Assembly (NCBI GenBank): GCA_965178125.1
Contig: OZ237753.1
Span: 930,001-994,000 of the forward strand
DNA from: Bilabrum cf. latius
Lineage: Eukaryota
Direction of reading: 5' to 3'
DNA length: 64,000 nucleotides
The position numbers and the translations under genes are program-made. The notes under the pieces were generated by a model. That model had not been told where the DNA came from, made no database searches, and saw nothing but the letters and a program-made list of their open reading frames with translations. Below, in pieces: positions 3,371-64,000 of this stretch. The first letter of the stretch is position 1; every line of letters begins with the position of its first letter.

Positions 3371-4987
3371 ATGGCCAGCAGTGCAGCACTTGGCCAGTCT
3401 CCGCCAAAGCCTCGCGTTGTGCTTGTGGTTGGCACAACAGGAGCAGGAAAAACAAAGCTTTCTGTTGATGTTGCTAAAGCCATTGGTGGTGAAGTAATCA
3501 ATTGCGATTCGGTGCAGATGCGTCGAGGACTGGACGTTGCGTCTGCAAAGGCAACTCCAGCCGAAATGGACGGGGTACCACACCACCTACTCAGCTTTCT
3601 GGATCCTCTTGACTCTAGCTATAGTGTGAAATCATTCAAGCGAGACGCGCTTGACCGCGTTGACGACATCACCAGGCGCGGGAGGGTGCCGATTGTGTGC
3701 GGAGGCACGCTGTATTACGCCCAAACTCTTCTATTCCCCGGCACCCTGGACTCAACGGAAGAACTCTTAGCAGTTCAAGGGGGGGGCAGTAAGTTTGCAC
3801 CCAGCGGTAGCGCCGTGGAGCCCGATGCCTCGCACAGGCCGTCCAAGCGACGACGGACGGAAATTGATAGTGCTGCCAGTGGTGATAGCGGGGTAGAAGC
3901 GCGTCACCACGGAGAATCGTCGGACACGGCCGATCATAAAGACGCAGCTGGAGCTGGTACAGTGCGATCTCGCCTGGCGGCTGCTCTCGGGCAGCATATC
4001 CGAAAAATGGCGGCCTCATCGTCATCATCACCGCGACCTTAGACAGACCCTTTGCAGCCGGTTGGGCCGGATCCGAGCCAGCTGCTGGAAGCAATAGAGT
4101 CTCTGGAAGCAGATCAGTTGCACTCTGTTCTCCGGAGCACGGACCCGGAGTCCGCTGCCCGGCTGCACCCCCGGGACCGCCGCAAGGTGCACCGCGCCCT
4201 CCTGGAGCAGGCGCAGAGGGGGCGCTTGTTCTCCCAGGCTATCAGGGAACAGAGAGAGATGGTCGCAACCGGGCTGCTGGAGGGGCCCGCGGAGTGCTTG
4301 GTGCTGCAGCCGTGGGCGGCAGACGACGTGCTGGCCCGCCGTCTGGGCGCGCGCGTGGACGGCATGGTGCGTGCGGGGCTGGTGGAGGAGGTGCTTCGGT
4401 TCGCAGAGTCTGGCGGATCGGTAGACAGAGGAAAAGAGGACAATAGGCCAGGGGACGGGCCAGTGGGTCTGCTGGGAGCGATCGGATTCAGGGAGTTTGC
4501 GCCTGTGCTAGAAATGAGGATGAAGAGAGCAGCGACGGGGGAGGGATAGCGCGGCCTTGAAGGCGGTTCTGCCTCCAGCAGCAGCAGCAGTAGTGCCAGT
4601 GCAGCACATATGCTTGGGGCGGGTCCCGCAGGGAAGGGGGATGAGGAGGCGGCAGTGCTGCAGGGTTGCCTGGCAGATCTCAAGCGGACTACTCGGCGGT
4701 ACGCCAAGTACCAGCAGCGCTTTCTGACTTCTAGATGGGAAAAGAGGGGTGTGCCCATCCTGCGTTTGAACACGTCAAGCGTGGGCGAGGTGGAGGGGGC
4801 GTGGGAAGAGCGAGTGCGGGGTCCAGCAGTGGCAGCGGTGCGTGCATTTCTGGAAGGTGGGCTGGAGGCGGTGCTGCGGCGGAGTGGTGCACCGCATGGC
4901 GGTGCAGTCCCGTGGGCCGGCATGATCCGGCGCGGGGAAGATGAAGATGGGGGTGGTGCAGGTGCAGGTGCAGGTGCAGGTGCAGGT

Positions 4988-5019
<32 letters not shown>

Positions 5020-7072: not shown

Positions 7073-8044
7073 TCAGTGCCTCTAGCCCCCGTGGTCCTGC
7101 ACCCCGAAAGAGTCCTTCAGCAGGCTGTATATGGTGAAGGACACCGACACCGCCACTGGCCCCTTGAACACGTTCATGCTGAGGCCCTTGTAGAGCCCCC
7201 TCCACCCACCCTCCTGCACGACCCCACGAGCCACCTCCAGCATGCCTCGGGGCCTGGGCCTCTGCCGAGCCCCATCCGCCCCGATCGCTCCTCCGTCCAG
7301 CGCCTCCGTCTGCATCCTGCGCCTCACCACATCCAGCGGGTAACACGAGGCCTGGCCAAGCAGACCAGCCACGGCCCCGCACGCCAACCGCTCCACCACG
7401 GTGGGCTCCCTCCCGGCGCCATCCCTGATTCGCTGCTTGAGCGCGTCATTCGTCCAGAAGCTGACCGCTGCATACGGCACGATTCCAACAAGAGAGGGGC
7501 CCAAGCCGCGGTACAGGCCCGCCAGCCCCCGCGCTTGCACCACCTCGCGGGCGGCGGCCATCAGACCGAACTGGCTCGAGTGCAGCGACGTGAGGGCCAG
7601 CCGCGCCCGTAGCATGTCTAAGGGGTACGTCACCAGCGTGGACGCCGTCCCCGCGGCAGCACCAGCCACAAGGCGCTCCGTGTGATTGAGGCTCGCCGAC
7701 CGCGTTGCGTCACCGTGCCGAATCGCTCTCGCTTTTCGGAACAGATTGGCAAGGATGTCGAAAGTTGCCAGCTGTATGCCAGAGTATGGAGCAACGCGGA
7801 TAACCGTCGCAGAGTTGCCCTTCCAAAGACCTCTTGGTCCTTCTGTTCGTAGCAATCGTCCCAACTCGCCGGCCGCGGCCCGTGCGGAGAACTATCGGTG
7901 GCTGGTTTGAAAAATGATTTTGACTATATCGAGCGGGGCAATTAGTGACTTTGCAGCCGATCCGGCTATAGCTCCGGCCAAGAATCTGCGCAGGGGCTGG
8001 TACGACGGCTGGAGAGCTTCTCTATCAGCCTTAGCCAATGCCAT
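7073..8044 (-). CDS. SLC25A42: Mitochondrial carrier protein, CoA-carrier (SLC25A42/Leu5)-like
   Basis: Three carrier signatures (APLDIVKIIFQ, YPLDMLRARL, YPLDVVRRRMQ) plus LWKGNSATVIRVAPY. ATG 8044, internal TAG 7892 and 7082, TGA at 7073. Confidence 0.85.
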
Positions 8045-8283
8045 GTCACCGGTACCTTCCGTGCCCACACCGTCACAGACAAGTCAATCAGACTAACTCT
8101 ATGCTAATCAGTCTAGTCTCTTAGTACGTATCAATCATATTTGACGTGACTTTTCGCGGATATCGATTGTACTAGAGCTCGTATTATGATACATCCTGTC
8201 GGCTTTCGTTCTGCCGGAAAAAACGAACCTATCAGACCGAACGTTCGTCTTGATGAAAAAGCAACTGTCACACACAACGCAAA

Positions 8284-10254
8284 ATGTCCGAGTCCAAGCA
8301 CGGTAGTGCTGCTGAACCACTACCAAGAGGTCGAGTTCTACTTGAAACAGAGGTCGGACGGCTTGAGATTGCCTTTTTCTCAGATGATGCCCCTTTGGCG
8401 GTCCGTAACTTCTTGCGCCGTGTCCGCCAAGGCTATTATAACGGAGTTCTCTGGCATAGAGTGTTACGAGGGGCGCTCATTCAGGCAGGAGATCCAACTG
8501 GCACTGGAAGGGGCGGTCGTGCTAGTGCGTTGGGCTCAGGCAGGCCCTTCCAAGATGAGTTCAGCCCACGACTGCACTTCAAGCGCCGAGGGCTGGTTGC
8601 ATGCGCCAACGCCGGCGAGCCGGACAGCAACGGATCGCAGTTTTTTGTAACACTTGGGCCCTGCGACTGGCTGGACGGGTAGTGCACCATATTCGGCTCG
8701 CTGGTAGGCCACGGCTGGAGCTCGACGCTGACCAGTCTGGGTAGCAGCCGCACCGAGCCCGGCTCGGAGCGCCCTATGGAACCCAGGCGAATCACGAGGG
8801 CCACTGTTGTGGAATGGCCGTTTGCAGACGATCCAGAGGCAGCCGACGAGTCCATCAGCATGGCGGGTGGGACGGAGGGGCGGGCGGCAGGGGCAGGCGC
8901 GGGGGCCGGCGGCGAGGATGCTTTAAGCTCGTCGGGGCCGAAAGAAGGGCTCTCGTCCGAGCTGTCGACAGCCGACAAACTGGAGAAACTCGCGCGGGAC
9001 CAGAAATTGAAGAGGAAGAACAGGCACCTGCTCTCGTTCGGGGCGGCGGGCGGCAAGCGGGCCCGCGCCGGTGCGGGGGCAGCTCTCGGGGCTGGCGGAG
9101 ATGAGGACGATGAGGACGACGAGGACGGGGCGGGTGCAGGGGGCTCCTCGCTGGCTGCTCGCAGACGAGCCAAGCGAAGAAAGGTGGGCCGCTCTGCGGC
9201 GGCGCTGGACCCGGAATCGGAATCGAGATCCGGGGGACTTGCAAGCGGTGGAGACAGGCTGCGGGCCGGTGGTCGCGCGGATGGACAAGGCGCGGCGGCG
9301 TCGGCAGGATCAGGGCCATCGGCAGTGTCTTCTTCACAGGGCGGATCTAGCCGTAGCAATGGTGCATTGCATGGTGGTGCATCAGTCCTGCGCGCTCGGA
9401 TGCAGGCCGCCCTGGAAGGGGATCTGGAGCAAGCTGGGATCGGTAGCTCGGCCGGGGCTAGCAGTGGCAGCGGAAGCAGCAGAAGGGATGAAGGGCCGGG
9501 CGGGAGGGTGGGCGCTCCATCCTCCAGATCAGCTGCCCCCGCCCCTGCCCCTGTCCCTGCTCCCGCCTCGCTCCTTGAGCAGCTCCGGTCCAAGTACACT
9601 CGCCGCGGGGAGGCACCTTTGTCCTCGTCCTCATCCTCTTTCTCGTCCCAGCGAGGTGCAAGTGGGGTGCAGGGGTCCAGAAAGCGCCGGAGGGAGCGGG
9701 AGAGCCGCACCCTGGAGCGGCTGAGGGCCTTCAGGGAACAAGTCAAGCAGGCGCAGGTGAAAGGGAAGGGGGAGGCGGAGGGTGATAATGAGGATGAGGT
9801 GGATGCGGGAGTCAGCCAGGATAAAGATGAAGACAAGGACAAGGACAAGGATCAGGGTAGGAAGGTGGCAGAAGCGGTGGGCGGCGCGTCGGCCCATGGG
9901 CTGTCCCGAGCCAATGCCGAGGAGGATGAAGGCCTCAGGGCGCGGCGATTCCTGGACGAGAGCGACTCGGAGTCGGAATCGGACTCGGAATGGATGGCGG
10001 CCCGGCTGCGCGCGGCTCGACATGTGGACCACGCGTTCCGTATGGAGGGCGGAGCTGGCAGAGCAAAGGGGGAAACAAGCAGCAGCGGTAGTAGCAGCAG
10101 CAGAAGAGGTGCAAGCAGCAGCAGTGGGGGCCCTGGTGCACGCCATCGTGGGGCAGGCGGAGCTGCCGATGGGAGAGGGAGCCGAGACTACCCGCCACGC
10201 GCCATGCCGAGAGGCGGTGGCAGCATCTCGACCGGGAACTCGAGCAGATGGTGA
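8284..10254 (+). CDS. CWC27: Cyclophilin-type PPIase, spliceosomal CWC27-like
   Basis: EPLPRGRVLLET, QAGDPTGTGRGG, FQDEFSPRLHFKRRGLVACAN, NGSQFFVTL, WLDG*CTIFG; the domain continues through TAG 8680. C-terminal RESRTLERLRAF and EWM motifs; ends TGA. Confidence 0.85.
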
Positions 10255-10414: not shown

Positions 10415-11980
10415 ATGCAAAGCCCAGACTCTAAAGATGCGTCGAAGATTGCAATGGATGCCATGTTTGCCAAGGCAGGGGCGCGCACGTCGAGGAAAGG
10501 CCTGGACCACGATGATGATGCAATGAGCACGGCAACTGCGGACGAGCTGCTGTCCACGACTGGATTTGATCCCCTTGAGCTCGCTGATCCGCTATCTGGT
10601 GCTATGGGAGGATCTGCAGGAGGCGGGAGCGCAGGAAGCGTCGGAGCCGACGAGGTGGTCCGGCTACGAAACGTTCACAAAACGTACCTGCTTGGTACCG
10701 AAGGCGTGGCCGCTTTAAGGGGAGTGAGCATTTCGGTGCGGCGCGGAGAGACTGTCATGGTTGTAGGCAAGTCAGGCTCGGGGAAGAGTTCCACTTTGAA
10801 CGTGATTGGGATGATTGACAAGCCCACAAGGGGCGACGTCTGGTTGTGCGGAGCCAGGATCGATTCAAGAACGCCCGATTACGTGATGGCCCGCATCCGT
10901 CTCAGGCAGCTTGGCTTCGTGTTTCAGAGCTTTAACTTATTGCAAAGCATGACGGCGCTGGAGAATGTCATGCTCCCGATGACGCTCGCTGGGTGGGGCT
11001 CGGCCGAGGACCGTTCGAAGCGCGCAGAGTACCTGCTCCGCCGCGTCGGCATGGGGCATCGCACCGGCCACCGCCCCCCTCAGCTTAGCGGTGGCGAAGC
11101 CCAGCGCGTCACGATCGCCCGCGCCCTCGCGAACAACCCCGCGGTGCTGCTGCTAGACGAGCCCACGGGCGATCTCGACCAGCGCAACACCTCGATCGTG
11201 CTCAAGCTGCTCACAGACCTGTGCGAACACGAGGGGGTCACGCTCGTCATGGTGACCCACGACCTCACTCTCCGCAAGCTGGCCCACCGCGTGGTGCACA
11301 TGCTGGACGGGCGCGTGCTCCGGGAGGAACACATGGACCCGGAGAGGAGGCGAGCGGCACTAAAAGAGCTGGCCGAGTCGGATGCGGCCAGGGAGCTGGA
11401 GGCGGTGCTGGCGGCCGAGCGGGAGGAAGACCTCGGGGCGGGGGGGTCGCGCCCGGGGCTGTCAGCGGGCCGGACAGGGGCAGGGACAGGGACAGGGGCG
11501 ACTGCATCTGTCGCTCCGTCGCTGCCCGGGAGTGGCACTGATGCAGCGGGTAAGGCAGGGGGGAGTGCCGGTAGCAGAGCGAGCAGCAGCGGGGCAAGTA
11601 CATCTGCAGGAACAGGAACAGGGGCAGGGGCATGGGCAGGGGCAGGGGCAGGGGCAGGGGCAGGGGCAGGGGCAGGGGCAGGGGCAGGGGCAGGGGCAGG
11701 GCTAGAACAGGGGGCTGTTCCCCGGCGAGCCACCTTCGTGGTGAGGAGGCCGACCTCGTATGCCACCTTCAGGATCGCGCTGGCGCAGCGTGTGGGCGGG
11801 GGTACGAGTGGGGGAGGGGGTCACGTTGGGGGCGGGAGTGGCGGTGGCCTGGGAGCGAGAGGACTGGAGGGGGAGCCGCGACTGACAGAGGGACACCATG
11901 GAGGAGGCGCTGCTGCCGCCTCGCTAGAAATGGCGGGGGCCACGGACACGGGGCTGCACGCCGAGCTTGGGGGCCACTGA
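10415..11980 (+). CDS. Stand-alone ABC ATPase (LolD/MacB-type nucleotide-binding domain)
   Basis: Walker A GKSGSGKS, GFVFQSFNLL, LSGGEAQRV, LLDEPTGDLD, VTHD. No transmembrane segments, no internal TAG, ends TGA. Confidence 0.9.
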   Translation: MQSPDSKDASKIAMDAMFAKAGARTSRKGLDHDDDAMSTATADELLSTTGFDPLELADPLSGAMGGSAGGGSAGSVGADEVVRLRNVHKTYLLGTEGVAALRGVSISVRRGETVMVVGKSGSGKSSTLNVIGMIDKPTRGDVWLCGARIDSRTPDYVMARIRLRQLGFVFQSFNLLQSMTALENVMLPMTLAGWGSAEDRSKRAEYLLRRVGMGHRTGHRPPQLSGGEAQRVTIARALANNPAVLLLDEPTGDLDQRNTSIVLKLLTDLCEHEGVTLVMVTHDLTLRKLAHRVVHMLDGRVLREEHMDPERRRAALKELAESDAARELEAVLAAEREEDLGAGGSRPGLSAGRTGAGTGTGATASVAPSLPGSGTDAAGKAGGSAGSRASSSGASTSAGTGTGAGAWAGAGAGAGAGAGAGAGAGAGAGLEQGAVPRRATFVVRRPTSYATFRIALAQRVGGGTSGGGGHVGGGSGGGLGARGLEGEPRLTEGHHGGGAAAASLEMAGATDTGLHAELGGH

Positions 11981-12265: not shown

Positions 12266-14179
12266 TCACCAGTAGGACGGCAGGTCACCGTCGATCGAGG
12301 CCCGGATCTCCTTGAGCCCCCCGGCGGCGCTCTTGGCAGGCACCCCTGCCTTCGATAGGATCTCGGCGGCGGTCAGACTGCGCACTCCACGCCTGCACAG
12401 TGTCACAACGGCAGGCCCGCTTGACTCGTCCCCACCCACCGCACCCTCTGCCCCATCGTCCACGCCACTCCTGGCCCCCCGCACCCACCTCTGCACCAGC
12501 GCGATGGCCCGCTCCCTGGTGCGGCGCGATTTGAGCAGCTCCAAGGGCAGGTGCAGAGACCCGGGAAGCCGCACCACGCTCCACTGCGAGTCGTCGCGGA
12601 CGTCCACAACGAGCGGCAGTGCAGTCGGAGTAGAAGCACAGCCTGGTGCGTCGCTTCTGGTGCCGTCTCCGGCCCCGGTCGCTGCGCCCGTGCTCCCTGC
12701 TCCCGCGGGCTCAGCAGCCGCATCCTAGTCGGCACTGCTGGCCCCTGGGGCGAGTGCGGCCTGCAGCTGCTCCCGACCAGCCAGCACCTCCTCGGAGCCT
12801 GGTACGTACATGCGCCAGCGGGTGCCCGATGCCGCCGCCTTCCCCTTGGATCGTTCCCCCTGTTCCCCTGGCCCCTCTTGTTCCTCGGCGTCCCTGAGTG
12901 CTGCCTCCAGTGCATCCATCGCCCCCTACGCACCCACCTCCAGCTCACCGAGTCCCGCCACCTAGACCTACTGCCCCCCACCCTCACCCTCACCCTCACC
13001 CTCCGCGCATGCCTCGCACCCCTGCCCCCCCTCGAAGGAAGATAGACCCTTCTCCCTGATCCAGGCAGACGTCCCCTCCGCTGTAGGGCCCTTGTTCTCC
13101 CCCTCTCCCGCGCCTGCATCCCCCGACTCAGTCCCCTCCCCCTCGGCATCGTCTTCCAGCCCACCGCAAGCGAAGCAGTCCGGCCTCCTGCCTCGCATGC
13201 GGGCCGCCCGCACCACTACCCCCATCGCGTCCAGCACCAGCAGCCGCCCAGCCAGAGAGGTTCCCGCGCCCACCAGGAGCTTGATGCCCTCGCAGGCCAT
13301 GAAGGAGCCCACCACGCCCACCACGGGGCCCAGCACGCCGTCATCCGCGCATGTCTTCACGTCGTCGGCGGGAGGGGGTTCCGGGTGGAAGCAGCGGTAG
13401 CACGGTGCGCGGCGCCGCGGGGCTGCGGAACCGACCGTGGCTCTGGGAAGGCCCTCCCGCTCGCGCACCTGCTCCCAGCAGTAGACGGACAGCTGGCCGT
13501 CGCTGCCAAGCGCGGCGCCCGACACGAGCGGAACCTGGGCCGCCACGCAGGCGTCCGAGACGGTGTATCTCGCGGCGGGGTTGTCCGTGCAGTCCAGCAC
13601 CAGGTCGTAGGTTCCGCTGCCGATTAGCTGGAAGGCATCCCTGGCGTTCATGCGGCGGGTGTCCAGTGGTGTGCTCACCGCAGTGGCCGGGTTGAGGGCG
13701 AGGATGCTCGCCCGCAGGCTGCTCGTCTTGGACTGCCCCAGGCGGTCTGTCGTGTGGGCGATTTGGCGGTGGAGGTTGCTGTCGTCCACCACGTCGTCGT
13801 CCACCAGAGCGATGGAGCCCACCCCGGCGCCGGCAAGGTACAGCGCCACGGGGCACCCCAGTCCGCCGCACCCGATCACCAAGACGCGCGAGGCTTTCAG
13901 CCGAAGCTGCGACGGCGAGCCACCAAAGCCTGGCGCTATCATCTACCGACTGTATCTGTGGATTTCTGCGGGCGTTAGCGTCAATTTGCTGCTGCTGGCG
14001 GTTTCTAACGCGGCGGTTGCAGTTGATTTTGGTCCCTCCTGCCGTGCCGATTTGGACTATGTTTCCTCCACTGCACCCGTGGACTGTCCGTCAGACGATG
14101 TAAAGTGTAAAGCAGCCGCGGCCAGTCCCGCTGTAGCAGCACCGAGCACGATGCCGCCACCGAACGAGTAAACGTCCAT
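12266..14179 (-). CDS. MOCS3: Adenylyltransferase/sulfurtransferase Uba4/MOCS3 (MoeB domain plus rhodanese)
   Basis: EIHRYSR*MI, VIGCGGLGCP, SNLHRQI, DCTDN, PCYRC, GVLGPVVG, CFAC, rhodanese VVDVR..LCRRGVRS. Six in-frame TAGs (14057, 13943, 12968, 12962, 12926, 12725); ends TGA 12266. Confidence 0.92.
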
Positions 14180-14655
14180 TCCACCTAGGAAGAACGCGGG
14201 CGTTCGCTAGCTGCTACAGTCCCGCTGTAGCAGCTAGATTGGGGTCGGGAACGATCACCTAGGAAGAACGCGGGCGCGACCTCTCTGTCACCAGCCAAAT
14301 GTATCAACAGAAGTATATATCCGGCAAATAGATGCGCAGTCCCAGCAAGCTCAGACAATGAGGAACGATGGAATCCGATGGATCCAGCAATCGCACGCAA
14401 CAACCGGCCGAAAAATCGCACCATTGAGTATTTTCAAAACGACCAACTGCAACGACCCAAGCCCGTTTGTAGTTGCCCGCCCGCTGCATTCATTCAAATA
14501 TCCCCAAGCTTGTGCTGGGGAAGCAACAAGTTGGAGCCGTGGAAGAATCAGGCGCGTCACAAGGCCCGAGCCGCGCACTTGCCCTTGCTCTGCTAAAGAT
14601 CAGCAGGCAGCGAATAAAGAAGGCAGAGAGCAAAGGTCTCGGCTGGGTTGCTAAT

Positions 14656-16248: not shown

Positions 16249-19064
16249 ATGCGCTTTCCCGTTTTAATGAATGCTTGGCTAGTCGCATGCAGTGTTGCTT
16301 TCGTGTGTGCTGCAGCTGGCGATGCAGAAGATCCTAGGCGAATAGAGTACTTTCCAGTGAGTGGCGAATTCTCGTCAGGACTATCAGCACCATCGCACGA
16401 ACTAATTCATATTATTTTAGCATATCCAACATTGTTTCTTTGTAATTGTAGGCTGTGGATACGTTCGCAAGGGGGATACTGGGCGTTGACACCAGCGTGA
16501 AGGTAGTAGAAGAGCTCCCGCCTGGTCTGGCGGCTGAAGCCTTGAGGTTTGCGTAGCAGGATGCAAGTATGCAGACACGGGGAGGCGTCAGCGTGCTGCA
16601 TAGGGATACTCTACCAGCAACCGAGGTTGTGACGGAGTTTCTCGCAGGTGACGGTAGACCCTTCCAGTGCGTATTGCCCCGGCCGGCCCCGCCCCCACCT
16701 TCGCAAGAAAAGATTCGAGAGTATGCAATCAAGGATGACATGCAGTACTGTCAGCGTGTCCTTCGTCCGCGAAATGACGGTAGCGCGGACGAGAGCACGC
16801 CTAGGCACCTGCGTCGCACGCCGTACAACTCGTGCATCGTCCTGACGTCGGGCTACTGGACGTACCAGGTATGCCCCGGCCATAGAGTGCGATAGCTTCA
16901 CTTGGCTCCGGGCGAATCGATCGATCCCGTCAGCGGCGAAGTGACTGCCGTCGGTTTCCAGCCTTCCCAGGCGAGAGCCAAGGCAGCGGCAGCCAGCGGA
17001 GAGGAGGAGGAGGAGGAGGAGGAGGAGGGATCAGTGGGCGTGGGGCATGACGACTCGGGGGACGGCGACCTTGACAGCGAAGTCTCGTCTCCAGCTGATG
17101 GTGCCGCTTCTGCTGGTGGTTCTTCTGCTGCCAGCTCTGCCCAGATCGAGAGCGTCGTGCTGGACCTGGGGCGGTACCTCCCCGGGCACGACGTGCTCGA
17201 GTCGAGAGGGGACGGTGCAGTGTCCTACGTGCAGTCGTTCGAGGGCGGGACCGAGGGAAGGAAATCCACGGTGCGGTTCGTGTGCGAGCCGAAGGGCATG
17301 GTCCCGCAGGAGAACGCGCGGGGGGGCAAGGACAGCACCCATCGGCAGCACCAGAAAGGGGGACAGGCAGGTGAGGGCGATGGCTCGTACTCGGGCTCGA
17401 TGCAGGAGAGGAGGGCGAGGAAATCGGGGGCTGCGGGGCCAAAGAGCAGCTCTAGGCACCAGCAGGTGGTCAACGTAACGGAACCGCTCCCCAGGCAGTA
17501 CGATGTGGTGGTGGGCACTCGTCACACCGGGCTATGCAAGCGGTTGTCGAGCGCGAGCCGGCTGGTGGGCCGGCTTGGTGCGAGCACCTGCATCCAGGTC
17601 CCGCGCGGGTGGTGGACGTACGAAGTGTGCATTGGTGGTGAGGTGAGCCAGTTTCACCAGGTGGATAAAGTCGTCAAGGAGAAGAGGAGGATCCTGTCCA
17701 GCGGCAAGGGGGGCAAGACGAGCACGAAGCGGAGCGGCATGGGCGAGGATGATGACGACGATGAGGATGAGTAGGAAGATGAAGAGGATAGTGGTGTGAG
17801 CGGGGCTCGATACAAGGAGGTGCAGGTGCGTAAGACGGTGAGAGAGGCCTCCTTCTCGCTCGGGAAGTTCTCTCCCGAGTACGGCACGCGCATCATCCGC
17901 CCCAGCAGGGGGGGCTTCTTCGATGACCTGGAGGCGCTGGTGAGCGAGGCACCCACCAGGGAACAAGGCAAGGGCGAGGACGATGATGGTGAGGGTGAGG
18001 GTGGGAGTGCGGCCCATCGAGGTGCCTCATCATCATCATCATCATCTTCATCTTCATCATCATCATCATCAAGGAGGAGGGCCAGGGCAGCCTCGAGGAG
18101 CGGGAGCGGGAGGAGGGGGAGAGGGGCGGGCAAAAGGGGGCATGCGAACCAGCGGCCGAGGCCCAGCGTGGCCCCGCCCTTGCCCCCTCTGGTATTTAGC
18201 TAGCACGGGCAAGTGCTTGGGCCCGGCGAAGAACAGGGAGGGAAGGGGGTAGGGATCGATGTCGGTCGCAAAGGAGCACGAGGAGGAGGCGGCGAGACAG
18301 CGAGTGGGAGTGGGAGTGGGAGTGGGAGTGGGAGTGGGAGCGGGAGCAGCCCCTCGGCGGGCAAGGAATAGGACAAGGACAAGGAAAAGGGCCAGGGCAA
18401 GGAACAGGTCAGGCTGCTTGACGGCAGGGTGCCTCTGGACGCGGCCGAGCTGGGGCTGAGCTCGCCCGACCCCGCCTACGTGAGTCAGATGTACATTGGG
18501 GGCTCCAGGTGCGACCTCACGGGCAAGCCCCGAGCCACCGAGGTGAGGTTCGTGTGCGACCCGTCTGCCTCCGTGGTGGTGCTCGAGTCGCTCGAGGAGG
18601 CGCACACGTGCTAGTACAGGGTGATCCTCCGGGCCAGCAAGGTCTGCAGCCACCTCGAGCTGAGGCCCCCCAGTGCGCAGGCGGTGGCGAATGCGCAAGG
18701 GCAAGGGCAAGGGCAAGGGCAAGGTGGCGGGACAGAGGAAGGGGAAGGAGGGGATGCCTCAGTGGGTGGTCGTCTTGGGGGTGGATCGCATGCAGGCCCG
18801 GGCGATGGCAGTGACGGGGAGGAGCACGGGACTGGTGAGGCGGAGATGGAGGGGGACAGCGGAAGGAACAGCGACAGTGGTCAAGCCGAAGCGCAAGGCG
18901 AAGCAGGCGCTAACCGTAAAGATGAAGATGGGCCATTGAGCGTGCTCTCGGTCGACGAGGCCTTGGGGCTGCTTCGGTCGGGAAGCGCACTTTGCGCGCC
19001 TGCTCCGCTGGATCGAAGTAATTTGATGGCTGGTGCTGTGTAGTGGCAGCTAGGGCTCGCTTGA
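16249..19064 (+). CDS. ER lectin with MRH domains (OS-9/ERLEC1-like), signal peptide
   Basis: Hydrophobic N-terminus and intron 16357-16451. GYWTYQVCPGHRVR*LH, GWWTYEVCIGGEVSQFHQ, GSRCDLTGKPRATEVRFVC..TC*YRV. Seven in-frame TAGs; TGA at 19062. Confidence 0.85.
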
Positions 19065-25906: not shown

Positions 25907-26654
25907 TTACTTTCCCTCGGCGCCCTTGCCCTTCCCAGCCTCCTCCTCGAGCTGTGCGTTCAGCGCCACGTAGTCGACCGGCTTGCTCGCTGCCCTTCGC
26001 CTCCGCTTGAACACCCGCTCCCCTCCTCCTGCCGCTCCCCGCTCCGGCTGCACCCCGCGCTTGGACCCCACTGCGGGGTCACCGCCCTCCGCTGCCCTCT
26101 TCATCGCCTCCTCCCTCTCCCGTTGTTCCCTGGCTCGCAGCGCCTCCTCCTCCTTCCGAAACAGCCCCGCCTCCTCCTCGGCGTTGTACCCCCGGGAAAG
26201 CCCACTCGACAGCGCGCCCACGTGCGCCAGCGCAGACCGTGCAAATGCACTGGCAGCCCCTCCCTGCACCCTGTAGCCCCCCTCCAGCACACTCACCACC
26301 CGCCCATGGCACCTCCGGTTGGCGATCCGCAGCAGGCACCTGGTCACCCAGGCGTAGTCTTCCTCCCGCAGCACGCCGTACCCGTGGTTCAGCTCGTCCT
26401 TCGCGTGCGCGTCGAACCCCGCAGAAATGAAAATCATGTCGGGGTCGAATGCGTCCACCCGCGGCAGCACCTCCTCCACCATGAGCCGGCGCCAGTCCCT
26501 CGCCGAGTGACCCACGGGCAGACCCACGTTCAGCACGGATGGGGCAGAGGACAGGCCCAGCCTGGGTGCGCCCGTGGCAGGGGCTCTGTGAGTACCGTAA
26601 TGAGAATCGGCAGCGGCCCGTGGTGCTTCCGTCGGGAGAGAGGACGAAGACGAA

Positions 26655-26687
<33 letters not shown>

Positions 26688-29120
26688 CGCGTTTCGGGCG
26701 CCTGTCCCGCTACCTGAGCCTTGGGCGCGAGGCCTCCCACCCTGGCAGGGTCCAGGCCCTCTCCGAGCTTGTTCCCTGACACCCCTTCCACGGGACCAGA
26801 GGCGGGGTAGAACCACGGGCCGGGCAGCCCCTTCGGCTTGCTCTCCTCCTCCTTGTTCTCCTTCTCGTCCCCCTCATCGTCGCCTCCACTCATGGGGGCC
26901 TGGCCACCTGCTGCTGCCTTGGAGACACCGTCCACCTGCTGCGCCTGCGCCTCCATCTTACGAGCCAGCGCCTCTGCACCGGCGGGGTCCCGCTTGCCGT
27001 ACCCGTGCAAGCTCACGAACATGGTGCTGTCCCCATCCTGCCCGTCCAGCCACGGCTTAAAGCTGCCCTGCTTCGCGCGGTAGCTGCCCAGCGGGAGCGC
27101 ACCACCCGTCTGCACCGCAGTGGGCTGCAGGTTCCGCACGACTGCCTCGGTCCCGTTCCCGTGATGCACGTCGAAGTCGAAGATCACCACACGGCGGACC
27201 GCGTGCTCCGTGCGGGCATACCGCGAGACAGCGTATGCCGCGCCCACTGCAACGTTGTTCACTAGACAGAACCCCTGCGGTGTGAAATTCGGGAGAAAGC
27301 GAACGGGGGGTAAGGCTTGCTGCTTGCAATCGCTAACGAATCGCGACGCGATGCGATATGAATCCGCAAACGAGGTACTGTGGTTTGCTCACGTGACTTC
27401 CGTGCGGATCGTTCGGGCAGGTCACAAGCCCAAAAGGACCCGCGTGGTGGCCAGGAGGACGTACGGCGCAGAACGCATTCCTGGCCCTCCCGGCCACCAC
27501 CCTGTCTACGGCGAGGCAGACGGACCCGGCCGCCCGCAGCACGGCATCCAGAGTCCCCGGAGACACCGCCGTGTCCATGTCAAGGTGCTCCAGCCCGCCC
27601 GTGCCCTCGGCCCGTCTGCACGCTTCCACCAGCCTCTGCACGTGGCTGTACTCGTGCACTCGCAGCACGTCCGCGATGCATGCCCTGGGCGCCTCTTCCC
27701 AGGCGGTGCGGCTGGCCAGGCAGCCCGCCCGCAGCACGCCCACGCGCGCGTCCACCAGCCAGCGCAACCTCTCGGGATTCTCGGGGGCGGGCTCCCCCAT
27801 GGGGCTCCGCTTGTAGTCCTATTGGCTGGTGAGGTGCTGCATGCAGTCCGGGTGCGTGACCAGCAGCGTGCACGAGGGTGCCGGGGGGGATTGGGGGGAG
27901 GTGGAGGCAACCCCCTGGCTGTCCGTCCCGGAAGCGGGCGATGCCTTGGATGTCCCAGGTGATGGAGACGATAGTGCGGAGGAAGAAGAAGAGGAAGAAG
28001 AAGCGGCCTGGGCCTCGACGGCCTCCTGGTGCACCCTCGCGGCCACAGAGCCGTCGCCCCCCTGCGACCGCACGGGGGCGGGGGTGGCTCTATGCGTGGG
28101 CTCCTGGCTCTCCATGGCGGACCGACCGTCCAGAGCGCGCAGCTCCGCGGCAGCCTCGGGCCCCATGGCGTGGACGAGGCGGTCGGCGAGCGCGGGGTGT
28201 CCCCCCGCCGAGGCCGAGTGTGCGGGGGTGCGGCCCAGGGCGTCTTGTGCCCTGGCCGAGGCGCCGCGCGATAGAAGAAGTTCCGCTGCCTCGCTCTGTC
28301 CGAACTCGGCGGCGCAGTGAAGCGGGGTGCGTCCCTGCCTGTCCCTGGCCCCGAGCAACTGCTCCACCCGCTGCTCGCCCGCCTCGTCTTGGGCCTCGGC
28401 GGCAGACGATGCCGCCCCTTCCGCCTCTCCTTTCTTGGAGTCACCACCGCCGCCCTGCTTGCTCCTGGCCGCGTCGAAGGCCTCCTGCGACACGTCAAAG
28501 TCCTCCATTAGGATTGATCGCCGCCTCTCGTCCGGCTCTTCAAGCAGCATCCTGAGGATGCCCTCGTCCACGCCACCCGAGCCCTTATCGCCACCTGTCC
28601 CCGAGCCCAAGGCCCCGCCGTCTGCTGATTTAACGGCCGTAATGATCGTCTCCAAGCACTTGGTGAGCCCGTTGGCAGCTGCGATGTGTGCTGGGCCTTG
28701 CCCGTCGTCATCCACCCGAGTCGGGGAGCACCCGGCTTCCAGCAAGACCTCCAACGCATCGTGCGCAAACTGCGATTGGCCGCGGACCGCGCCAACCGAA
28801 AGCGCAAGGTGGATCGCCGGGGAGCCGGCGCACCCAGTTGATGGTTCGGCGCCAAGCTCGAGGGCTTTGCGGAGCGCGTCCAGCTGCGCGTGCATGATTG
28901 CCGTATGCAGCACAGTTGCCTCCCAACAATCCCGGTCGTCTATCCCGACGTCGTCTCCATCAGCCTCAGGATCGTACTCATCGTCCATTTTCTCTTCAGC
29001 TGCCTCAAATTGCTCTTGCAGCTTGTCAGCATCGCCCTCTTGCGCTGCGTCGTGCATGCCAAACGTAGTCCCAGGCTTCTACTGCATTGCAGAGCTTGAT
29101 GACTTCTAAATCCCAGACAT
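25907..29120 (-). CDS. Ankyrin-repeat plus class II-type histone deacetylase fusion
   Basis: Ankyrin repeats (ATVLHTA, GRTPLHCAA, GRTPAHSA). HDAC motifs PENPERL, RPPGHHA, GFCLVNNVA (intron 27275-27392), DFDVHHGNGT, SAGFDAH, LEGGY. TAG at 27819 plus two near the start; ends TAA 25907. Confidence 0.88.
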
Positions 29121-29581
29121 GATAAAACGGAAATCCAGGAATGACTTCAACGCTGCAGCTGAAAAGCAGTCGCTGTGACTCTTCAAACTGTCCGGCTCCC
29201 CAGTGGATCCACCGAGGAACGAACCGCTGGCCGAAGGTTCGAACTAGACATCTCTCCGCAGCGTCACTTCCACCCAGCTCACGCCGCACCGGCACACCAC
29301 CAGAAGCCTTCCCCTCTCTGGGTCTTCTTCCGGCCCCGTGCCGCGCTCCGCTTCTCTGCTCGCCGGGCACTCGGACACGGGCTTGGACGGTGCGACGCTG
29401 TTCATCAGACCGAGGCATTAAAAAATTCACGCAACAATCACACTAATCAATGTGTGTGCACAATTATTCCCACGATGAAAGAGCCAGTTGCTATGCGCAC
29501 TATCCACCGTTTCCCCTCCTCCCCGCTGCTGCTGGCTCCCTCTCACCCACAGCCTCTCTCTCTGACCCTATGTATCCTCTC

Positions 29582-52406: not shown

Positions 52407-53741
52407 ATGGCAGCAGTAGCCGGTAGCGCACCAAGTGACCGGAGTGCTAGCCGTGATGCGGCCGTCGAACACTTGCTCGCTTCCAGTACGACTCCTCCAG
52501 CTGAGGTTATCAAGCGGATTGAGGCATAGCTTGTCGGGTACACTGAGACCTTATTATCAGGAAGAGACCCATCTATAGTACTGCATTCAGATCGCCCAGA
52601 CGAAGTCTCGTTGCCAGGCGCTCGGACATTGGAGCTGTCATCCAAGCGAGGTGCACAGCGACACGCATCCATCTGGCTGATCTGGGCCCAAACATACGAG
52701 TTACTTCGACAGAACAAATCCTGCACCCTGCGTGAACTGTACTACAACAACGCGACCGTGTTCAAGTCTCAGGCAGAAGCCAACGCGGCCGTCATCGACT
52801 CGTGCCTGTCGTTGGGCGGCATATCTAGGCATTCCCTTGGGATATTTCCCAGCGTAAAGGGCCTGGTCGCCGGGAGCATCTTTGTTGAGCCTAGTGTTCT
52901 TGGCATCTCCTCAGCATCTTTGACTGAACACGTCGGGATGCCATCTCCAGCTGTCACCGACACGGCGGCTGCTGTTGGCGCAGCGGCATCACCGCGAGCT
53001 CCGTCGAGTGCGGCAGCAACTGGCCCTTCGTAGGACAGACCGGGCGCTCCAGCAAGCAGCTCCTAGTACATTGACCTTGCGGCTAGGACGACAGGTGTTC
53101 GCATCCCCTTTCGCGCGACGCAGGAGCTGACCCCCATCGTACCGCACAGAGCCGCCGAGTTCATCCTAGTTGTGGAGAAGGAGGGCATCTTCGAGCGGCT
53201 CCTGGAAGACGGATTCCCAAAGAAACACCCCTGCGTGCTCATCACCGGCAAGGGGTTCCCTGACCTCCCGACGCGGGCGCTCGTGTGGCAGCTGCACATG
53301 CGGTTCGCACTGCCAGTGTACGGGCTGGCCGACTACAACCCCTACGGGGCCGCCATCATGCTCGCCTACTGCGACCTGCCCGAGAGCGCCAGTGGGGATC
53401 CAAAGCCCGCTGGCCGACGAGTCGGCAGCGCGGGGGCGTCCGTGGGTACCAAGTTCACCGTGCCCGTGCGGTGGCTGGGCATGTTCGACCGGGATGTGGA
53501 GGCGCTGCCTGACTCGGTGCTGCAGGAGATGAGCAGCAGGGACACCAGCAGGGCGGAGGGGCTGATACGAGACCACCCCGACCTCCCAGAGCTGTGCGAG
53601 GAGGTGCAGCTGATGGTGGACGGGGGCTACAAGGCCGAGATCGAGGCGCTGCACGCCCACGGGCTGGGGCACCTCACCGAGACCTTCCTGCCGGAGCGAG
53701 TGGGCGACGCGAGCAAGTGGATCCTCCTCGCCAGGGATTGA
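52407..53741 (+). CDS. SPO11: Spo11 / topoisomerase VI subunit A, probably meiotic Spo11-2 type
   Basis: TLRELYY (catalytic Tyr), KGLVAG, VVEKEGIFERL, ITGKGFPDLPTR, DYNPYG, KAEIEAL. TAG at 52527, 53031 and 53064; ends TGA. Confidence 0.9.
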
Positions 53742-61597: not shown

Positions 61598-64000
61598 TCA
61601 GAAATCCTTGAAGTGGTCCTGCGGGCCGCTGTACGGCGTGACCGGCTCGTCCTCATACTCGTCGGGGAAGCAGCTCGTGTCGAAGGGGTTCTTGAGCTTG
61701 GGCACCCACGGCGCCCTCATCTTCTTGGTCTGCAGCTGGATCCAGTCGATGTCCTTGGCAAACCACCGGTGGTTCATGATGTCCTTGCTCCCGTTGCGCT
61801 TGCAACCCAAGCGGTTCGTCACCTTGGCCACAAGGAGCTTAGCGATAAGGTCCTTGGCGTCCCTGTCCCGCATCCAGCTGGGCCACGAGAGCCGCCCCCT
61901 CACGATGGCCTTGCAGATCTTCATCTGGTCAGAGCCGCCGGAGCTGTCGGCGAAAGGGGAGTACCCCACCAGCATCTCGTAGATGAGCACGCCGGTGGCC
62001 CAGTGGTCCACGCCCGCGCCGTGGCCCTTGCCCAGCACCAGCTCGGGGGCAAGGTACTCGGGAGTACCGCACAGCGTGTACGTCTTGCTGCCCGCCGCCA
62101 GCTTCTTGGCGAAACCCATGTCTACGATCTTGATGAAGCCCTGCGCGTCCAGGAGAAGGTTCTCGGGCTTGAGATCCCTGTAGACGATGCTCTTCTCGTG
62201 CATGGCGGCGAGCCCTGCAATGGTGCAGGCCGCGTAGAACTTGGCGTGGTCCGAGGGCAGGCAGCCCGTCTCCTGGTTGGACAGCAGCGTGAACAGCTCG
62301 CCCCCCTGGACCAGCTCCAGCAGCATGAACAGAGAGTCCTTGTCCTGGAAGGTTTGGATCAGGCCCAGCACGAAGGGGTGGTTAATCTGCGCCAACACGT
62401 CCCTCTCGTACTAGATGTTCTTGACCTGGCCGTACTCCACGACCTGAGCCTTCTGCAGCACCTTGAGTGCCATGGCCTCGCCGGAGGGACCGTGCCGGAT
62501 CAGCTTCACCTTGCCGAAAGTGCCCGCGCCCAGGATGCGGATCTGCTCCAGGTCGCTGAACCGGATGTCCGTGCGCAGCCTGGACGTGGTGGTGTCCCCA
62601 TCCGCGCCCTCACCCGCCGCTCCAGCCGCCGAGGTCGTCTCCTTTGGCTTGCCCTTCCTGGCCTGCACCTTGGCTAGAGACACGCCCACCGCCCGCTCGA
62701 AAGTGGGCTTATCGATGGCCAGCACCGCGGTCTTGTCCTCCGTGGCAGTGGCGGAGGGCACCCTGGAGCCGCCCGAGCCCATGAGCGCCTCGAGGCCGAA
62801 GCAAGCACCCGCCTCCACCTTCACGCCGCCGTCCAGCTGCACCGCGCCCTGCTTCACCACCATGAAGAGACCGTGACCCGCGGCGCCCCCAGGCTGCACC
62901 ACCTCCCCCGCGGCGAATTCCCTACCCACGAGCGCCGCCACCATGCGCTCCTTCTCCTTGTCGCCCAGGTTGGCCAGCTGGGCCTCCGTGCTCACCACGC
63001 GGATGCCCAGGTTGTGGTCCAGCACCTCCTTCAAGGGACCCAGCAGCTCCGTGAATGCCTTCCGGTCCAGCACCATGCACTTGCAGCTCTCCGCGGCCAC
63101 CACGTCGGCCGCCCTCGGCTCGTCCAGGAGCAGAGCCCTCTCGCCGAAGTAAGCACCCGTGGGCAGGGCGAGTTCCTTCCCCTCCGCGCCGATGTTCTTG
63201 CACATGACGCTTCCCTCCTGCAGCATGTAGAACTCCTGCGCCTTGTCTCCGCTCTCGCCCTTGGTGATGATCGTGTCACCGGGCTTGAAGGTCCTCATCT
63301 GCACCGCGTCCGCCACCTGGGCCACCTGCGAGTCAGTGAGGCTCTCCAGGAGGGGTACCTTGCGGAGGCTGGCCACAACCTGCGCCTGCTGGTCCTCCTT
63401 CGTCGAGGCGATCATGTAGCGGAAGGTCACTCGGTCCAGCGCCCACACCCGCGCGGGACCCGCCGCCACCACCGAGGCCGCCCTGGGAGCGTTGTAGAGG
63501 AGCGCCAGCTCCCCGAATGCGTCGCCCACAGTGCGGGAGGCCACCTTGTTGTCGCCCACGAAGATGTCGAAGACGCCCTCCTCCACGACGTACCACTCGT
63601 TCCCGTGGTCTCCCTGCTTGATGATGGCTTCTCCCTTGCTCAGCTTCTTCTCCTTCATGGCCATCACCACGTCCTCGATCTCAGAGGCAGACAGGGAGCT
63701 GAACAAAAAGCCCGCCGCGCCGTCCGGGGACAGAGTCTTGCGGATGATAGACTTGCTGGCCTCTCCCTTGGGATAGACAGGGAGCTTGAAATCCTCTCGT
63801 CGGCTAGCATCGTAAGACTCGGCCATGATCACGCCGCGCTTCTTCTTTGCCTTGCCCGAGGCAGCCCCGCCGGCGGCACCGCTCGGTCGCTTCGCACCGG
63901 CACTGCTCAATCGCTTCGAGCCGGCCGGTGGCTCCCACTGCGTCAAATTCTTCTCTTCGTTCCAGAAAAACACGTCTCCAGACTGCTCGTCAACCTCCTC
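61598..64000 (-). CDS. Cyclic-nucleotide-dependent protein kinase (PKG-like): WW domain, three CNB domains and AGC kinase; 5' end outside the window
   Basis: FFWN..TQWEPP (WW), FGELALLYNAPRAASV, FGERALLLDEPRAADV, GAGTFGKV, YRDLKPEN, DMGFAK, TLCGTPEYLAPE. The kinase domain continues across TAG 62411; TGA 61598. Confidence 0.92.

What the first reader, a model, noticed from the sequence alone, without database searches (positions are those of the whole stretch)
13943..13945. Diagnostic site: TAG occupies the conserved Gln of the MoeB/Uba4 RYSRQ motif
The minus strand reads LTPAEIHRYSR-TAG-MIAPGFGG. MoeB/ThiF/Uba4 proteins typically carry RYSRQ at this position. This is the strongest single identification of the amino acid as Gln rather than Leu, Glu or Tyr.
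Basis: partly seen in the sequence, partly recalled or inferred. Interest (0 to 1): 0.8.

Follow-up and report, generated by a model that had tools for sequence, protein, structure and literature searches.

The report
In-frame TAG read as glutamine
A TAG codon sits exactly where a sulfur-transfer enzyme (Uba4/MOCS3) always has a glutamine, and with many other in-frame TAGs nearby it indicates that this GC-rich eukaryote reads TAG as glutamine, not stop.

Summary
On the minus strand, TAG 13943-13945 lies between ...LTPAEIHRYSR and MIAPGFGG... in a complete Uba4/MOCS3 gene (12266-14179; ThiF plus rhodanese domains).

- **The aligned column is Gln-dominated.** Q in 120 of 120 best eukaryotic homologues. 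With a query lacking the motif: Q 104, H 28, other 6, gap 12 of 150. Lys, Leu and Tyr never occur.
- **The upstream codon matters.** It encodes the arginine equivalent to CtUba4 Arg18, needed for adenylation. A protein starting at Met 13942 would lack it.
- **The TAG is not an assembly error.** Contigs from four runs of four studies carry it unchanged. A 98%-identical relative's gene call also starts at that Met.
- **It is not an isolated nonsense mutation.** 21 gene frames (16,195 codons) hold 80 in-frame TAG and no internal TGA or TAA. Six Pfam domains span a TAG. Genes end in TGA (23) or TAA (1).
- **A second TAG (16893-16895) aligns with the conserved Gln of MRH lectin domains.**
- **One site disagrees.** In CWC27 the TAG falls on a Lys-dominated column (K 102, Q 2 of 120).

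Best reading: nuclear TAG=Gln with TGA and TAA as stops, a known kind of variant code. I found no report of it for an organism like this. No tRNA(CUA), eRF1 or peptide evidence was available.

The parts
13943..13945 (-). The TAG codon of the finding. It is codon 79 of the Uba4/MOCS3 reading frame and lies opposite the conserved Gln of RYSRQ.
   Evidence: Column counts.
12266..14179 (-). Uba4/MOCS3-type gene. It gives 637 aa when TAG is read as a residue, from ATG 14179-14177 to the TGA stop at 12268-12266. There are six in-frame TAGs (codons 41, 79, 404, 406, 418, 485).
   Evidence: Pfam ThiF 1.7e-64 and Rhodanese 2.5e-05. PDB Uba4 8e-62.
13946..13984 (-). Codons 66-78, LTLTPAEIHRYSR. This is the conserved N-terminal motif upstream of the TAG. 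The last codon (CGG 13946-13948) is the equivalent of CtUba4 Arg18, which contributes to the partner subunit's ATP site.
   Evidence: Paper PMC7527816.
13940..13942 (-). ATG (Met80) directly after the TAG. It is the start of the 324-aa ORF that standard-code gene callers report.
   Evidence: Gene calls P0385 and P0386 start here.
13175..13954 (-). ThiF/MoeB adenylation domain (residues 76-335). It spans the TAG.
12302..12613 (-). C-terminal rhodanese domain (residues 523-626) with the CRRGVRS loop. It is reached only by reading through TAG codons 404, 406, 418 and 485.
   Evidence: domain 3 alignment to the CtUba4 rhodanese domain.
12725..12970 (-). Four further in-frame TAGs of the same gene in the low-complexity linker (12968-12970, 12962-12964, 12926-12928, 12725-12727).
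   Evidence: The columns are unaligned in homologues.
14057..14059 (-). In-frame TAG at codon 41, in the non-conserved N-terminal extension.
16893..16895 (+). In-frame TAG at codon 150 of an ERLEC1/OS-9-like lectin gene (16446-19064). It lies opposite the conserved Gln of the MRH motif ...RQYH. This is a second Gln-diagnostic site.
8680..8682 (+). In-frame TAG at codon 133 of a CWC27-type cyclophilin gene (8284-10254). It lies inside the PPIase domain, opposite a Lys-dominated column.
62411..62413 (-). In-frame TAG at codon 521 of a cGMP-dependent protein kinase gene (61598-63973), inside the kinase domain. The aligned residue is K in Plasmodium PKG.

Best explanation
The window comes from a GC-rich (about 63%), intron-poor, flagellated eukaryote whose cytoplasmic translation reads UAG as a sense codon, most probably glutamine. 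UGA is the usual terminator and UAA is still used as one.

The TAG at 13943-13945 is therefore an ordinary Gln codon inside a functional Uba4/MOCS3 gene. Translation starts at or near ATG 14179 and runs through RYSR-Q-MIAPGFGG. It then passes through the adenylation domain and a long linker containing four more TAGs into the rhodanese domain, and stops at TGA 12266-12268.

Shown: the TAG is really in the DNA; it lies on a Gln column; TAG is in frame inside many conserved domains, while TGA and TAA never are.

Inferred: decoding is by a tRNA-Gln with anticodon CUA (or an equivalent), together with an eRF1 that no longer recognises UAG. Neither gene is in the window.
For: (1) Gene architecture.
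- ThiF residues 76-335 and rhodanese residues 523-626 lie in one TGA/TAA-free frame.
- The best PDB hit is Uba4.
- The C-terminus ...DLPSYW-TGA matches the ...FPxY ends of the Cafeteria and related homologues P0003-P0005.

(2) Column at the TAG.
- Q 120/120.
- Q 104, H 28, others 6, gaps 12 of 150 with motif-free retrieval.
- Q 93, H 23, N 1, P 1, gap 2 of 120 short homologues.
- K, L, Y and W are 0 in all three sets.

(3) The upstream arginine.
- The preceding Arg corresponds to CtUba4 Arg18, needed for adenylation in trans (PMC7527816).
- The numbering offset was checked on Gly45, Arg77 and Lys90 against the alignment.

(4) Window-wide pattern.
- 21 gene frames (16,195 codons) contain 80 in-frame TAG and 0 internal TAA or TGA.
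- The two off-frames of the same genes hold TGA 231/219, TAA 21/41 and TAG 79/93.
- Pfam envelopes of ThiF, Pro_isomerase, Pkinase, ODAD1_CC, Mito_carr and DCC1-like each contain a TAG (with 13, 32, 36).
- Terminal codons are TGA in 23 frames and TAA in 1, the second exon of the HDAC gene.

(5) Second Gln-diagnostic site.
- TAG 16893-16895 aligns with the Q of ...hirQyh in ERLEC1 MRH1.
- The gene's own second MRH domain and OS-9 have Q at the equivalent motif position.

(6) Not an error or a private mutation.
- Contigs of 4 of 4 laid runs, from four studies, cover 13943-13945 with 0 differences and no joints.
- One of these runs may be the window's own source.
- A 98%-identical protein from another assembly (P0386; 5 mismatches over the aligned first 345 residues of our protein) also begins at MIAPGFGG.
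- P0386 also ends at ...GEGQ, where our codon 404 is TAG.

(7) Summed log-odds over 7 aligned TAG sites: Q 8.7 bits, K 3.6, R -2.1, N -2.5, E -3.6.
Against: - The CWC27 TAG (8680-8682) falls on a column that is K in 102 and Q in only 2 of 120 homologues, including the closest ones.
- The PKG TAG aligns with K in Plasmodium PKG.
- ODAD1 TAG sites align with R, or with E/N/K/T. The IPPT zinc-finger TAG aligns with E of yeast Mod5 in a weak alignment.
- As a result, Lys is only about 5 bits behind Gln in the crude sum. That margin rests mainly on two invariant-Gln sites.
- ORF lengthening alone does not discriminate. Reading TGA as sense opens as many frames of 600 or more codons (22) as reading TAG as sense (22), against 4 under the standard code.
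- GC3 upstream of the TAG is low (0.56, against 0.84 downstream). However, the same 5' dip is seen in clearly coding N-termini of other genes here, such as the CWC27 domain at 0.3-0.55.
- The count of 80 includes stretches that may be UTR or intron. At least one TAG (AnkHDAC codon 691) lies in a GT-AG intron.
- No tRNA gene is in the window and no whole genome is held. The decoding machinery is therefore unseen.
- Whether any laid run is RNA is only a guess.
- Two frames have a TAG 2-6 codons before the TGA, so residual termination at TAG cannot be excluded.
Confidence: 0.85

Rival explanations
1. TAG is a sense codon in this organism but encodes an amino acid other than Gln. Lys is the only candidate with any support here. 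The Uba4 site would then be a tolerated replacement of the conserved Gln.
For: - The CWC27 column is K in 102 of 120.
- The PKG site aligns with K.
- ODAD1 sites align with R, or include K.
- Lys ranks second in the summed log-odds at 3.6 bits.
- UAG-only reassignments to Leu and to Ser have been reported elsewhere (abstracts of PMC5304391 and PMC11687900; passages of PMC8271138).
Against: - K, L, S-dominated or Y residues are absent or nearly absent at the Uba4 column in three homologue sets: 0 K, 0 L and 0 Y. S appears in 2 of 150 in one set only.
- The MRH site is Q in all three aligned MRH domains.
- Under TAG=Gln, a K (AAG) to Q (TAG) change is a single-base step, and K/R/E-to-Q replacements are common at surface positions. 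The neighbouring His of CWC27 is also changed here, to Cys.
Confidence: 0.05
2. The organism uses the standard code. The Uba4 gene carries a CAG-to-TAG nonsense mutation, and either is a pseudogene or is expressed as an N-terminally truncated protein from Met 13942. The downstream TAGs would be removed by an intron or would truncate the protein.
For: - A C-to-T change at a CAG Gln codon is the commonest route to a nonsense TAG, so a TAG at a Gln column is expected under this reading too.
- An ATG follows immediately.
- Standard-code gene callers produce exactly this 324-328 aa ORF in three assemblies.
- GC3 is low upstream of the TAG.
Against: - It would need the same accident in essentially every gene of the window. 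There are 80 in-frame TAGs in 21 frames against 0 TGA or TAA, and six Pfam domains are interrupted only by TAG.
- The rest of the gene is intact, with no frameshifts and with both domains, the zinc-site CxxC pairs and the rhodanese Cys loop present.
- The truncated product would lack the Arg18-equivalent needed for adenylation.
- The TAG and the ORF are kept in a diverged (98% identical) relative.
- No joint skipping the linker TAGs was seen in any of 4 runs, although these are contigs of uncertain RNA status.
- Low 5' GC3 is general in this genome.
Confidence: 0.03
3. TAG is ambiguous: mostly read through as Gln inside genes, but still able to terminate in some contexts. Part of the Uba4 product would then end at codon 78 or be made from Met80.
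For: - Two frames have a TAG only 2 and 6 codons before their TGA: mitochondrial carrier codon 329 of 331, and the ERLEC1-like gene codon 866 of 872.
- Context-dependent stop/sense codes are reported for ciliates (titles and abstract starts of PMC4967479 and 10.1101/2022.04.12.488043 in the listing).
Against: - Two such cases among 21 frames is close to the roughly 0.7 expected from the overall TAG frequency (my estimate).
- Every frame examined reaches a TGA or TAA after its last conserved domain, and no gene needs TAG as its terminator.
Confidence: 0.06
4. The TAG is corrected at the RNA level (U-to-C editing to CAG), or is an assembly or sequencing error.
For: None found. Considered only because a single base separates TAG from CAG.
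Against: - Contigs from four runs of four studies read the same letters with no differences over 13943-13945. Two of these runs are guessed to be RNA.
- Two other assemblies' gene calls start right after the site.
- 80 sites would need the same correction.
Confidence: 0.01

Closest known systems
UAG-only reassignment to Gln with UAA/UGA kept as stops: Iotanema spirale (Fornicata) and the ciliates Hartmannula sinica and Trochilia petrani. This corresponds to NCBI table 15 (table number recalled, not checked).
   Same: UAG is used as a sense codon read as Gln. UAA is not co-reassigned; here TAA terminates the HDAC gene. The meaning of UAG is inferred from conserved Gln columns. Sources: abstracts of PMC5304391 and PMC11687900.
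   Different: In those organisms UAA is the primary or preferred terminator. Here, in a 63% GC genome, TGA terminates 23 of 24 frames and TAA terminates 1. The organism is neither a ciliate nor an anaerobic fornicate by gene content and best hits. Its nearest named homologues are Cafeteria for Uba4 (51% identity), and Pedinophyceae and land plants for CWC27. Chlamydomonas DC2 is the best PDB hit for ODAD1.
UAR (UAA+UAG) = Gln codes of Dasycladales, Cladophorales, Trentepohliales and Blastophysa green algae, hexamitin diplomonads and many ciliates (NCBI table 6; table number recalled).
   Same: A stop codon is reassigned to Gln and TGA is the functional stop (PMC8271138, passages read).
   Different: No in-frame TAA occurs in 16,195 codons, and TAA ends at least one gene. 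With CAA itself rare (115 codons against 567 CAG), absence of in-frame TAA is only moderately informative.
Uba4 / MOCS3 (eukaryotic MoeB/ThiF-type E1-like adenylyltransferase fused to a rhodanese sulfurtransferase).
   Same: The domain order is ThiF then rhodanese. The RYSRQ N-terminal motif, the GCGGLGCP nucleotide loop, two CxxC pairs (CYRC, CFAC), the adenylation-domain Cys (KTCADDG) and the rhodanese loop CRRGVRS are all present.
   Different: A roughly 170-residue low-complexity insertion lies between the domains, giving 637 aa against about 440-480. There is a 65-residue non-conserved N-terminal extension. Six Gln positions are written as TAG.

Membership tests
Uba4/MOCS3 | ThiF/MoeB adenylation domain | tested here: met
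   Pfam PF00899, E 1.7e-64, residues 76-335, profile positions 1-236 of 238. PDB Uba4 6yub 8e-62 and MoeB 1jw9 1e-48.
Uba4/MOCS3 | C-terminal rhodanese domain with a catalytic Cys loop | tested here: met
   Pfam PF00581, E 2.5e-05 (25.1 bits against cut-off 22.2), residues 523-626. ...tlCRRGvrs aligns with CtUba4 ...vvCRRGqds, a weak stretch of 1.9 bits.
Uba4/MOCS3 | N-terminal R-Y-S/G-R-Q motif carrying the trans-acting ATP-site arginine (CtUba4 Arg18) | tested here: met
   R75, Y76, S77 and R78 are present and at consensus. The fifth position is the TAG codon, so the motif is complete only if TAG is translated, as Gln. The role of Arg18 is taken from PMC7527816.
Uba4/MOCS3 | Structural zinc site (two CxxC pairs) and the adenylation-domain cysteine | tested here: met
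   APCYRC, PDCFAC and KTCADDG align with CtUba4 apCyrC, kdCfaC and tsCgeag. The functional roles are taken from PMC7527816.
Nuclear code with UAG=Gln and UAA/UGA as stops | In-frame UAG inside conserved, otherwise intact genes | tested here: met
   80 TAG in 21 frames with 0 internal TAA or TGA. Six Pfam envelopes contain a TAG (with 13, 32, 36).
Nuclear code with UAG=Gln and UAA/UGA as stops | UAG codons fall on Gln-conserved columns | tested here: inconclusive
   Met at the two strongly conserved sites: Uba4 and the MRH domain. Not met at CWC27 (K 102, Q 2 of 120). The other sites are variable polar columns. The sum favours Q by about 5 bits over K. Only 7 sites could be scored.
Nuclear code with UAG=Gln and UAA/UGA as stops | UAA and UGA still terminate | tested here: met
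   TGA ends 23 frames and TAA ends the second exon of the HDAC gene. There is no internal TAA or TGA in gene frames.
Nuclear code with UAG=Gln and UAA/UGA as stops | Cognate tRNA with anticodon CUA, and an eRF1 altered in UAG recognition | not testable with these tools
   No tRNA gene was found in the window. No whole genome is held for it.
Nuclear code with UAG=Gln and UAA/UGA as stops | Peptide or ribosome-profiling evidence of Gln insertion at UAG | not testable with these tools
   No proteomic or ribosome-profiling data are on hand.

The most novel reading that the evidence does not exclude
This is an independent, so far unreported origin of a UAG-only-to-Gln nuclear code. It occurs in a free-living, GC-rich, intron-poor flagellate outside the ciliates and metamonads, with affinities split between stramenopile and green-algal hits. 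It is also the first such code in which UGA, rather than UAA, is the dominant terminator.
Probability: 0.45. Interest if true: 0.75.

Novelty: new member of a known kind. Interest (0 to 1): 0.62.

Why it matters
Nuclear code changes that affect UAG alone are rare. The abstracts I read report them only for one rhizarian, one fornicate and a few phyllopharyngean ciliates, and passages of PMC8271138 add one green-algal order, Scotinosphaerales.

A further case in a high-GC genome where UGA does nearly all the terminating would have three consequences:
- It would add an independent data point on how UAG and UAA recognition by eRF1 can be uncoupled.
- It would test the idea that codon rarity precedes capture.
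- In practice, every standard-code gene call for this organism is fragmented. Public ORFs P0385, P0386, P0122 and P0264 are pieces of this one gene.

The Uba4 site is a convenient single assay. One tryptic peptide (QMIAPGFGGSPSQLR) reports both read-through and the inserted amino acid. Uba4 itself makes the 2-thiouridine of wobble U34 (abstract starts), which recalled knowledge places in tRNAs including tRNA-Gln(UUG). This link was not tested here.

Tried and rejected
- Whole-genome look-up failed because no genome is held. tRNA(CUA) and eRF1 could therefore not be sought. ARAGORN found no tRNA in the window.
- The metagenome scan for relatives' DNA returned only three distant loci at 34-42% identity (L001-L003), which were not used. 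The DNA of the 76%- and 98%-identical relatives (P0122/P0264, P0386) could not be fetched. The codons at their equivalent sites are therefore inferred only from where their ORF calls start and end.
- No RNA holder is listed among the sequencing runs. The 'RNA?' labels of X7 and X8 are guesses.
  - Both stop at 14322/14323, which is at most a weak hint of a transcript 5' end upstream of ATG 14179.
  - Both have no cover over about 12958-13146, a low-complexity stretch.
  - No joints were seen in any run.
- ORF-length statistics under alternative codes do not discriminate, because TGA-as-sense also gives 22 long frames.
- GC3 as a test of coding upstream of the TAG was uninformative because of a general 5' GC3 dip.
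Two TAG-free ORFs gave only loose taxonomic hints: the nearest HDAC cluster is mostly Chlorophyta, and the nearest SDR clusters are mostly bacterial.
- Earlier findings of this scan returned nothing.
- Literature searches found no report of UAG=Gln in a stramenopile, or in a green alga outside the Ulvophyceae. Papers outside the held library and all supplementary files were not seen.
- Selenocysteine and pyrrolysine were considered and dropped because the column is Gln or His.
Full report
**What is there**

The minus strand around the finding reads K L T L T P A E I H R Y S R [TAG] M I A P G F G G S P S Q L R L K A S R V L V I G C G G L G C P. The TAG is at 13945-13943 and an ATG follows directly at 13942-13940.

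Under the bacterial/standard table the frame is cut into a 324-aa ORF from that Met (12968-13942) and a separate 113-aa ORF downstream. If TAG is read as a residue, one frame free of TGA and TAA runs from ATG 14179 to TGA 12266. It gives 637 aa with six TAGs, at codons 41, 79, 404, 406, 418 and 485.

Pfam finds ThiF at residues 76-335 (E 1.7e-64) and Rhodanese at 523-626. This is the Uba4/MOCS3 architecture. The best solved structure is Chaetomium Uba4 (6yub, E 8e-62). Its alignment runs ungapped across the TAG: query ...aeihrysrQmiapgfg against ...eeierysrQmivpgmg.

**The column**

I aligned the query, with X at each TAG, to three sets of homologues.

| Set | How retrieved | Residues at the TAG column |
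|---|---|---|
| a | Best 120 of 3717 hits in the 350-1115 aa range, mostly eukaryotic Uba4/MOCS3 | Q 120 of 120 |
| b | 150 cluster representatives, retrieved with the Met-start ORF alone (no motif in the query) | Q 104, H 28, S 2, N 2, T 1, E 1, gap 12 |
| c | 120 proteins shorter than 350 aa, mostly unnamed ThiF-domain proteins (named ones mainly bacterial MoeB-type) | Q 93, H 23, N 1, P 1, gap 2 |

- Set (a) was retrieved with a query that carried Q at the site, so a small word bias is possible. Set (b) avoids that bias.
- The two gaps in set (c) are gene calls of this same gene that begin at the Met.
- Lys, Leu, Tyr and Trp never occur in any set.
- Neighbouring columns are at consensus in our sequence: R75 120/120, Y76 119/120, R78 119/120.

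**Why Met 13942 is an unlikely start**

Pabis et al. [quoted passage not shown] R18A strongly reduces adenylation in vitro. The yeast equivalent R49A abolishes tRNA thiolation.

I mapped their numbering on the alignment. Gly45, Arg77 and Lys90 all fit with an offset of +2, which places Arg18 on the second R of RYSRQ. That is the CGG codon at 13946-13948, immediately upstream of the TAG. A product starting at Met80 would lack it.

GC3 upstream of the TAG is low (0.56, against 0.84 downstream). I first took this as evidence against coding. However, clearly coding N-termini of other genes here show the same dip: the CWC27 PPIase domain at 0.30-0.55, IPPT, Spo11 and the mitochondrial carrier. The low GC3 therefore says nothing either way.

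**Is the TAG real?**

Contigs from 4 of 4 laid runs, belonging to four studies, cover the site with no differing letters, no indels and no joints. One of these runs may be the window's own source.

Independent gene calls point the same way.
- P0385 is identical over its first 166 residues or so and then departs into another frame.
- P0386 is 98% identical (5 mismatches over the aligned first 345 residues of our protein).
- Both start at MIAPGFGG.
- P0386 also ends at ...GEGQ, where our codon 404 is TAG.

The stop-like codons are thus retained in a diverged relative whose ORF is otherwise intact.

Two fragments from a 76%-identical relative (P0122, P0264) end at ...SSFEGG. Our gene continues there with CAG (Gln). 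This is what a TAG at a Gln position in that relative would give, but its DNA could not be fetched.

**Is it systematic?**

The window is eukaryotic.
- It carries flagellar genes (HYDIN-like, ODAD1), a PKG, CARM1-type PRMT, CWC27, Spo11 and an ERLEC1/OS-9-like lectin.
- It has at least one canonical GT-AG intron.

In 21 gene frames totalling 16,195 codons there are 80 in-frame TAG and no internal TAA or TGA. The two off-frames of the same genes hold TGA 231/219, TAA 21/41 and TAG 79/93. TAG is therefore not avoided in frame, while the other two stops are excluded. These frames were delimited as TGA/TAA-free, and some of their ends may be UTR or intron. One of the 80 TAGs lies in the HDAC intron.

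Independent of that delimitation, six Pfam domain envelopes contain a TAG: ThiF, Pro_isomerase, Pkinase, ODAD1_CC, Mito_carr and DCC1-like. The PDB alignments of PKG, CWC27 and ODAD1 run through their TAGs without gaps.

Frames end in TGA 23 times and in TAA once. About 10% of Gln codons (80 of 762) would be TAG.

ORF lengthening alone is not diagnostic. Treating TGA as sense opens as many long frames as treating TAG as sense.

**Which amino acid?**

| TAG site | Residues in the aligned column |
|---|---|
| Uba4 codon 79 (13943-13945) | Gln (counts above) |
| ERLEC1-like codon 150 (16893-16895) | Q of ...hirQyh in ERLEC1 MRH1; the gene's own second MRH domain (CAG/CAA) and OS-9 have Q at the same motif position |
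| CWC27 codon 133 | K 102, R 7, Q 2 of 120 |
| PKG codon 521 | K (Plasmodium PKG) |
| ODAD1 codon 157 | R, R |
| ODAD1 codon 353 | E, N, K, T |
| ERLEC1-like codon 723 | E, Q, S |
| IPPT zinc finger codon 662 | E (weak alignment; seen after the sum and not part of it) |

- That the MRH Gln is one of the sugar-binding residues is recalled, not tested here.
- A crude log-odds sum over seven sites gives Q 8.7 bits, K 3.6 and all others negative.
Lys is not rigorously excluded by this window alone.

**Comparison with known systems**

UAG-only reassignment to Gln, with UAA kept as a stop, is described for Iotanema spirale (abstract of PMC5304391). It is also described for the ciliates Hartmannula sinica and Trochilia petrani (abstract of PMC11687900). 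UAG=Leu and UAG=Ser variants exist as well.

The present case is the same kind of code. It differs in two ways.
- UGA is the dominant terminator.
- The host is neither a ciliate nor a fornicate. Its best named hits are split between Cafeteria (Uba4, 51%), Pedinophyceae and land plants (CWC27) and Chlamydomonas (ODAD1 in PDB). Its placement is open.

Five literature searches found no report for such an organism. Supplements and papers outside the library were not seen.

**Verdict**

The site is a real, reproducible, in-frame TAG on a Gln column of a functional-looking Uba4 gene, in a genome where TAG behaves as a sense codon.

- Confidence that it is translated as Gln: about 0.85.
- Missing: tRNA(CUA), eRF1, and peptide or ribosome-profiling evidence.

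Noticed in passing
window 14182-14202 and 14256-14276 (minus strand): Two exact copies of a 21-base word lie 74 bases apart. One ends 2 bases before the Uba4 ATG at 14179. A palindromic stretch (ctagctgctacagcgggactgtagcagctag) lies between them. There are 0 matches in 100 shuffles. This could be a promoter or 5' UTR element.
   Followed up: partly
window 27275-27392 (minus strand): A canonical GT...AG intron of 118 bases splits the histone-deacetylase domain of an ankyrin-HDAC gene: ...HGSH | GFCLVNNVAVG.... It explains why the two HDAC ORFs (27057-29405 and 25907-27262) are in different frames. One of the counted in-frame TAGs lies inside it. The second exon ends in TAA, the only TAA terminator seen.
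   Followed up: partly
first 60-100 codons of most genes, e.g. 8284-8520 (+), 52407-52650 (+), 13945-14179 (-): There is a general 5'-to-3' rise of third-position GC within genes, from about 0.3-0.6 at the start to 0.8-0.95 later. It holds even inside conserved domains, so GC3 cannot be used to call start codons here.
   Followed up: partly
window 7073-8068 (-) codon 329 of 331; 16446-19064 (+) codon 866 of 872: Two genes carry a TAG only 2 and 6 codons before their TGA. Whether TAG can still terminate there (tandem stops) or is simply read through cannot be told from sequence.
   Followed up: no
proteins P0122, P0264 (relatives, 76% identical) against window about 13027-13029: The relatives' ORF calls stop at ...SSFEGG, exactly where this gene has CAG (Gln). 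This suggests a TAG at a Gln position in the relative, and hence the same code in a sister lineage. Their DNA could not be fetched.
   Followed up: partly
whole window, e.g. 11600-11700, 4900-5000: Long (GCN-GGN)n tracts encode GAGAGAG or AGAGAG runs, and other low-complexity inserts (poly-S, poly-E/D, GEGEGE) occur inside many otherwise conserved genes.
   Followed up: no
runs X1-X9: Near-identical DNA of this locus is held by runs filed under four different coded organism labels in four studies. The organism may therefore often be sequenced as a companion or contaminant of other cultures.
   Followed up: no
protein P0002: The top-scoring Uba4 hit, labelled as from an amphipod, is a 726-aa protein with two tandem ThiF domains. 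The first copy lacks several consensus residues. Its high score comes from the duplication, not from close kinship (42% identity).
   Followed up: no
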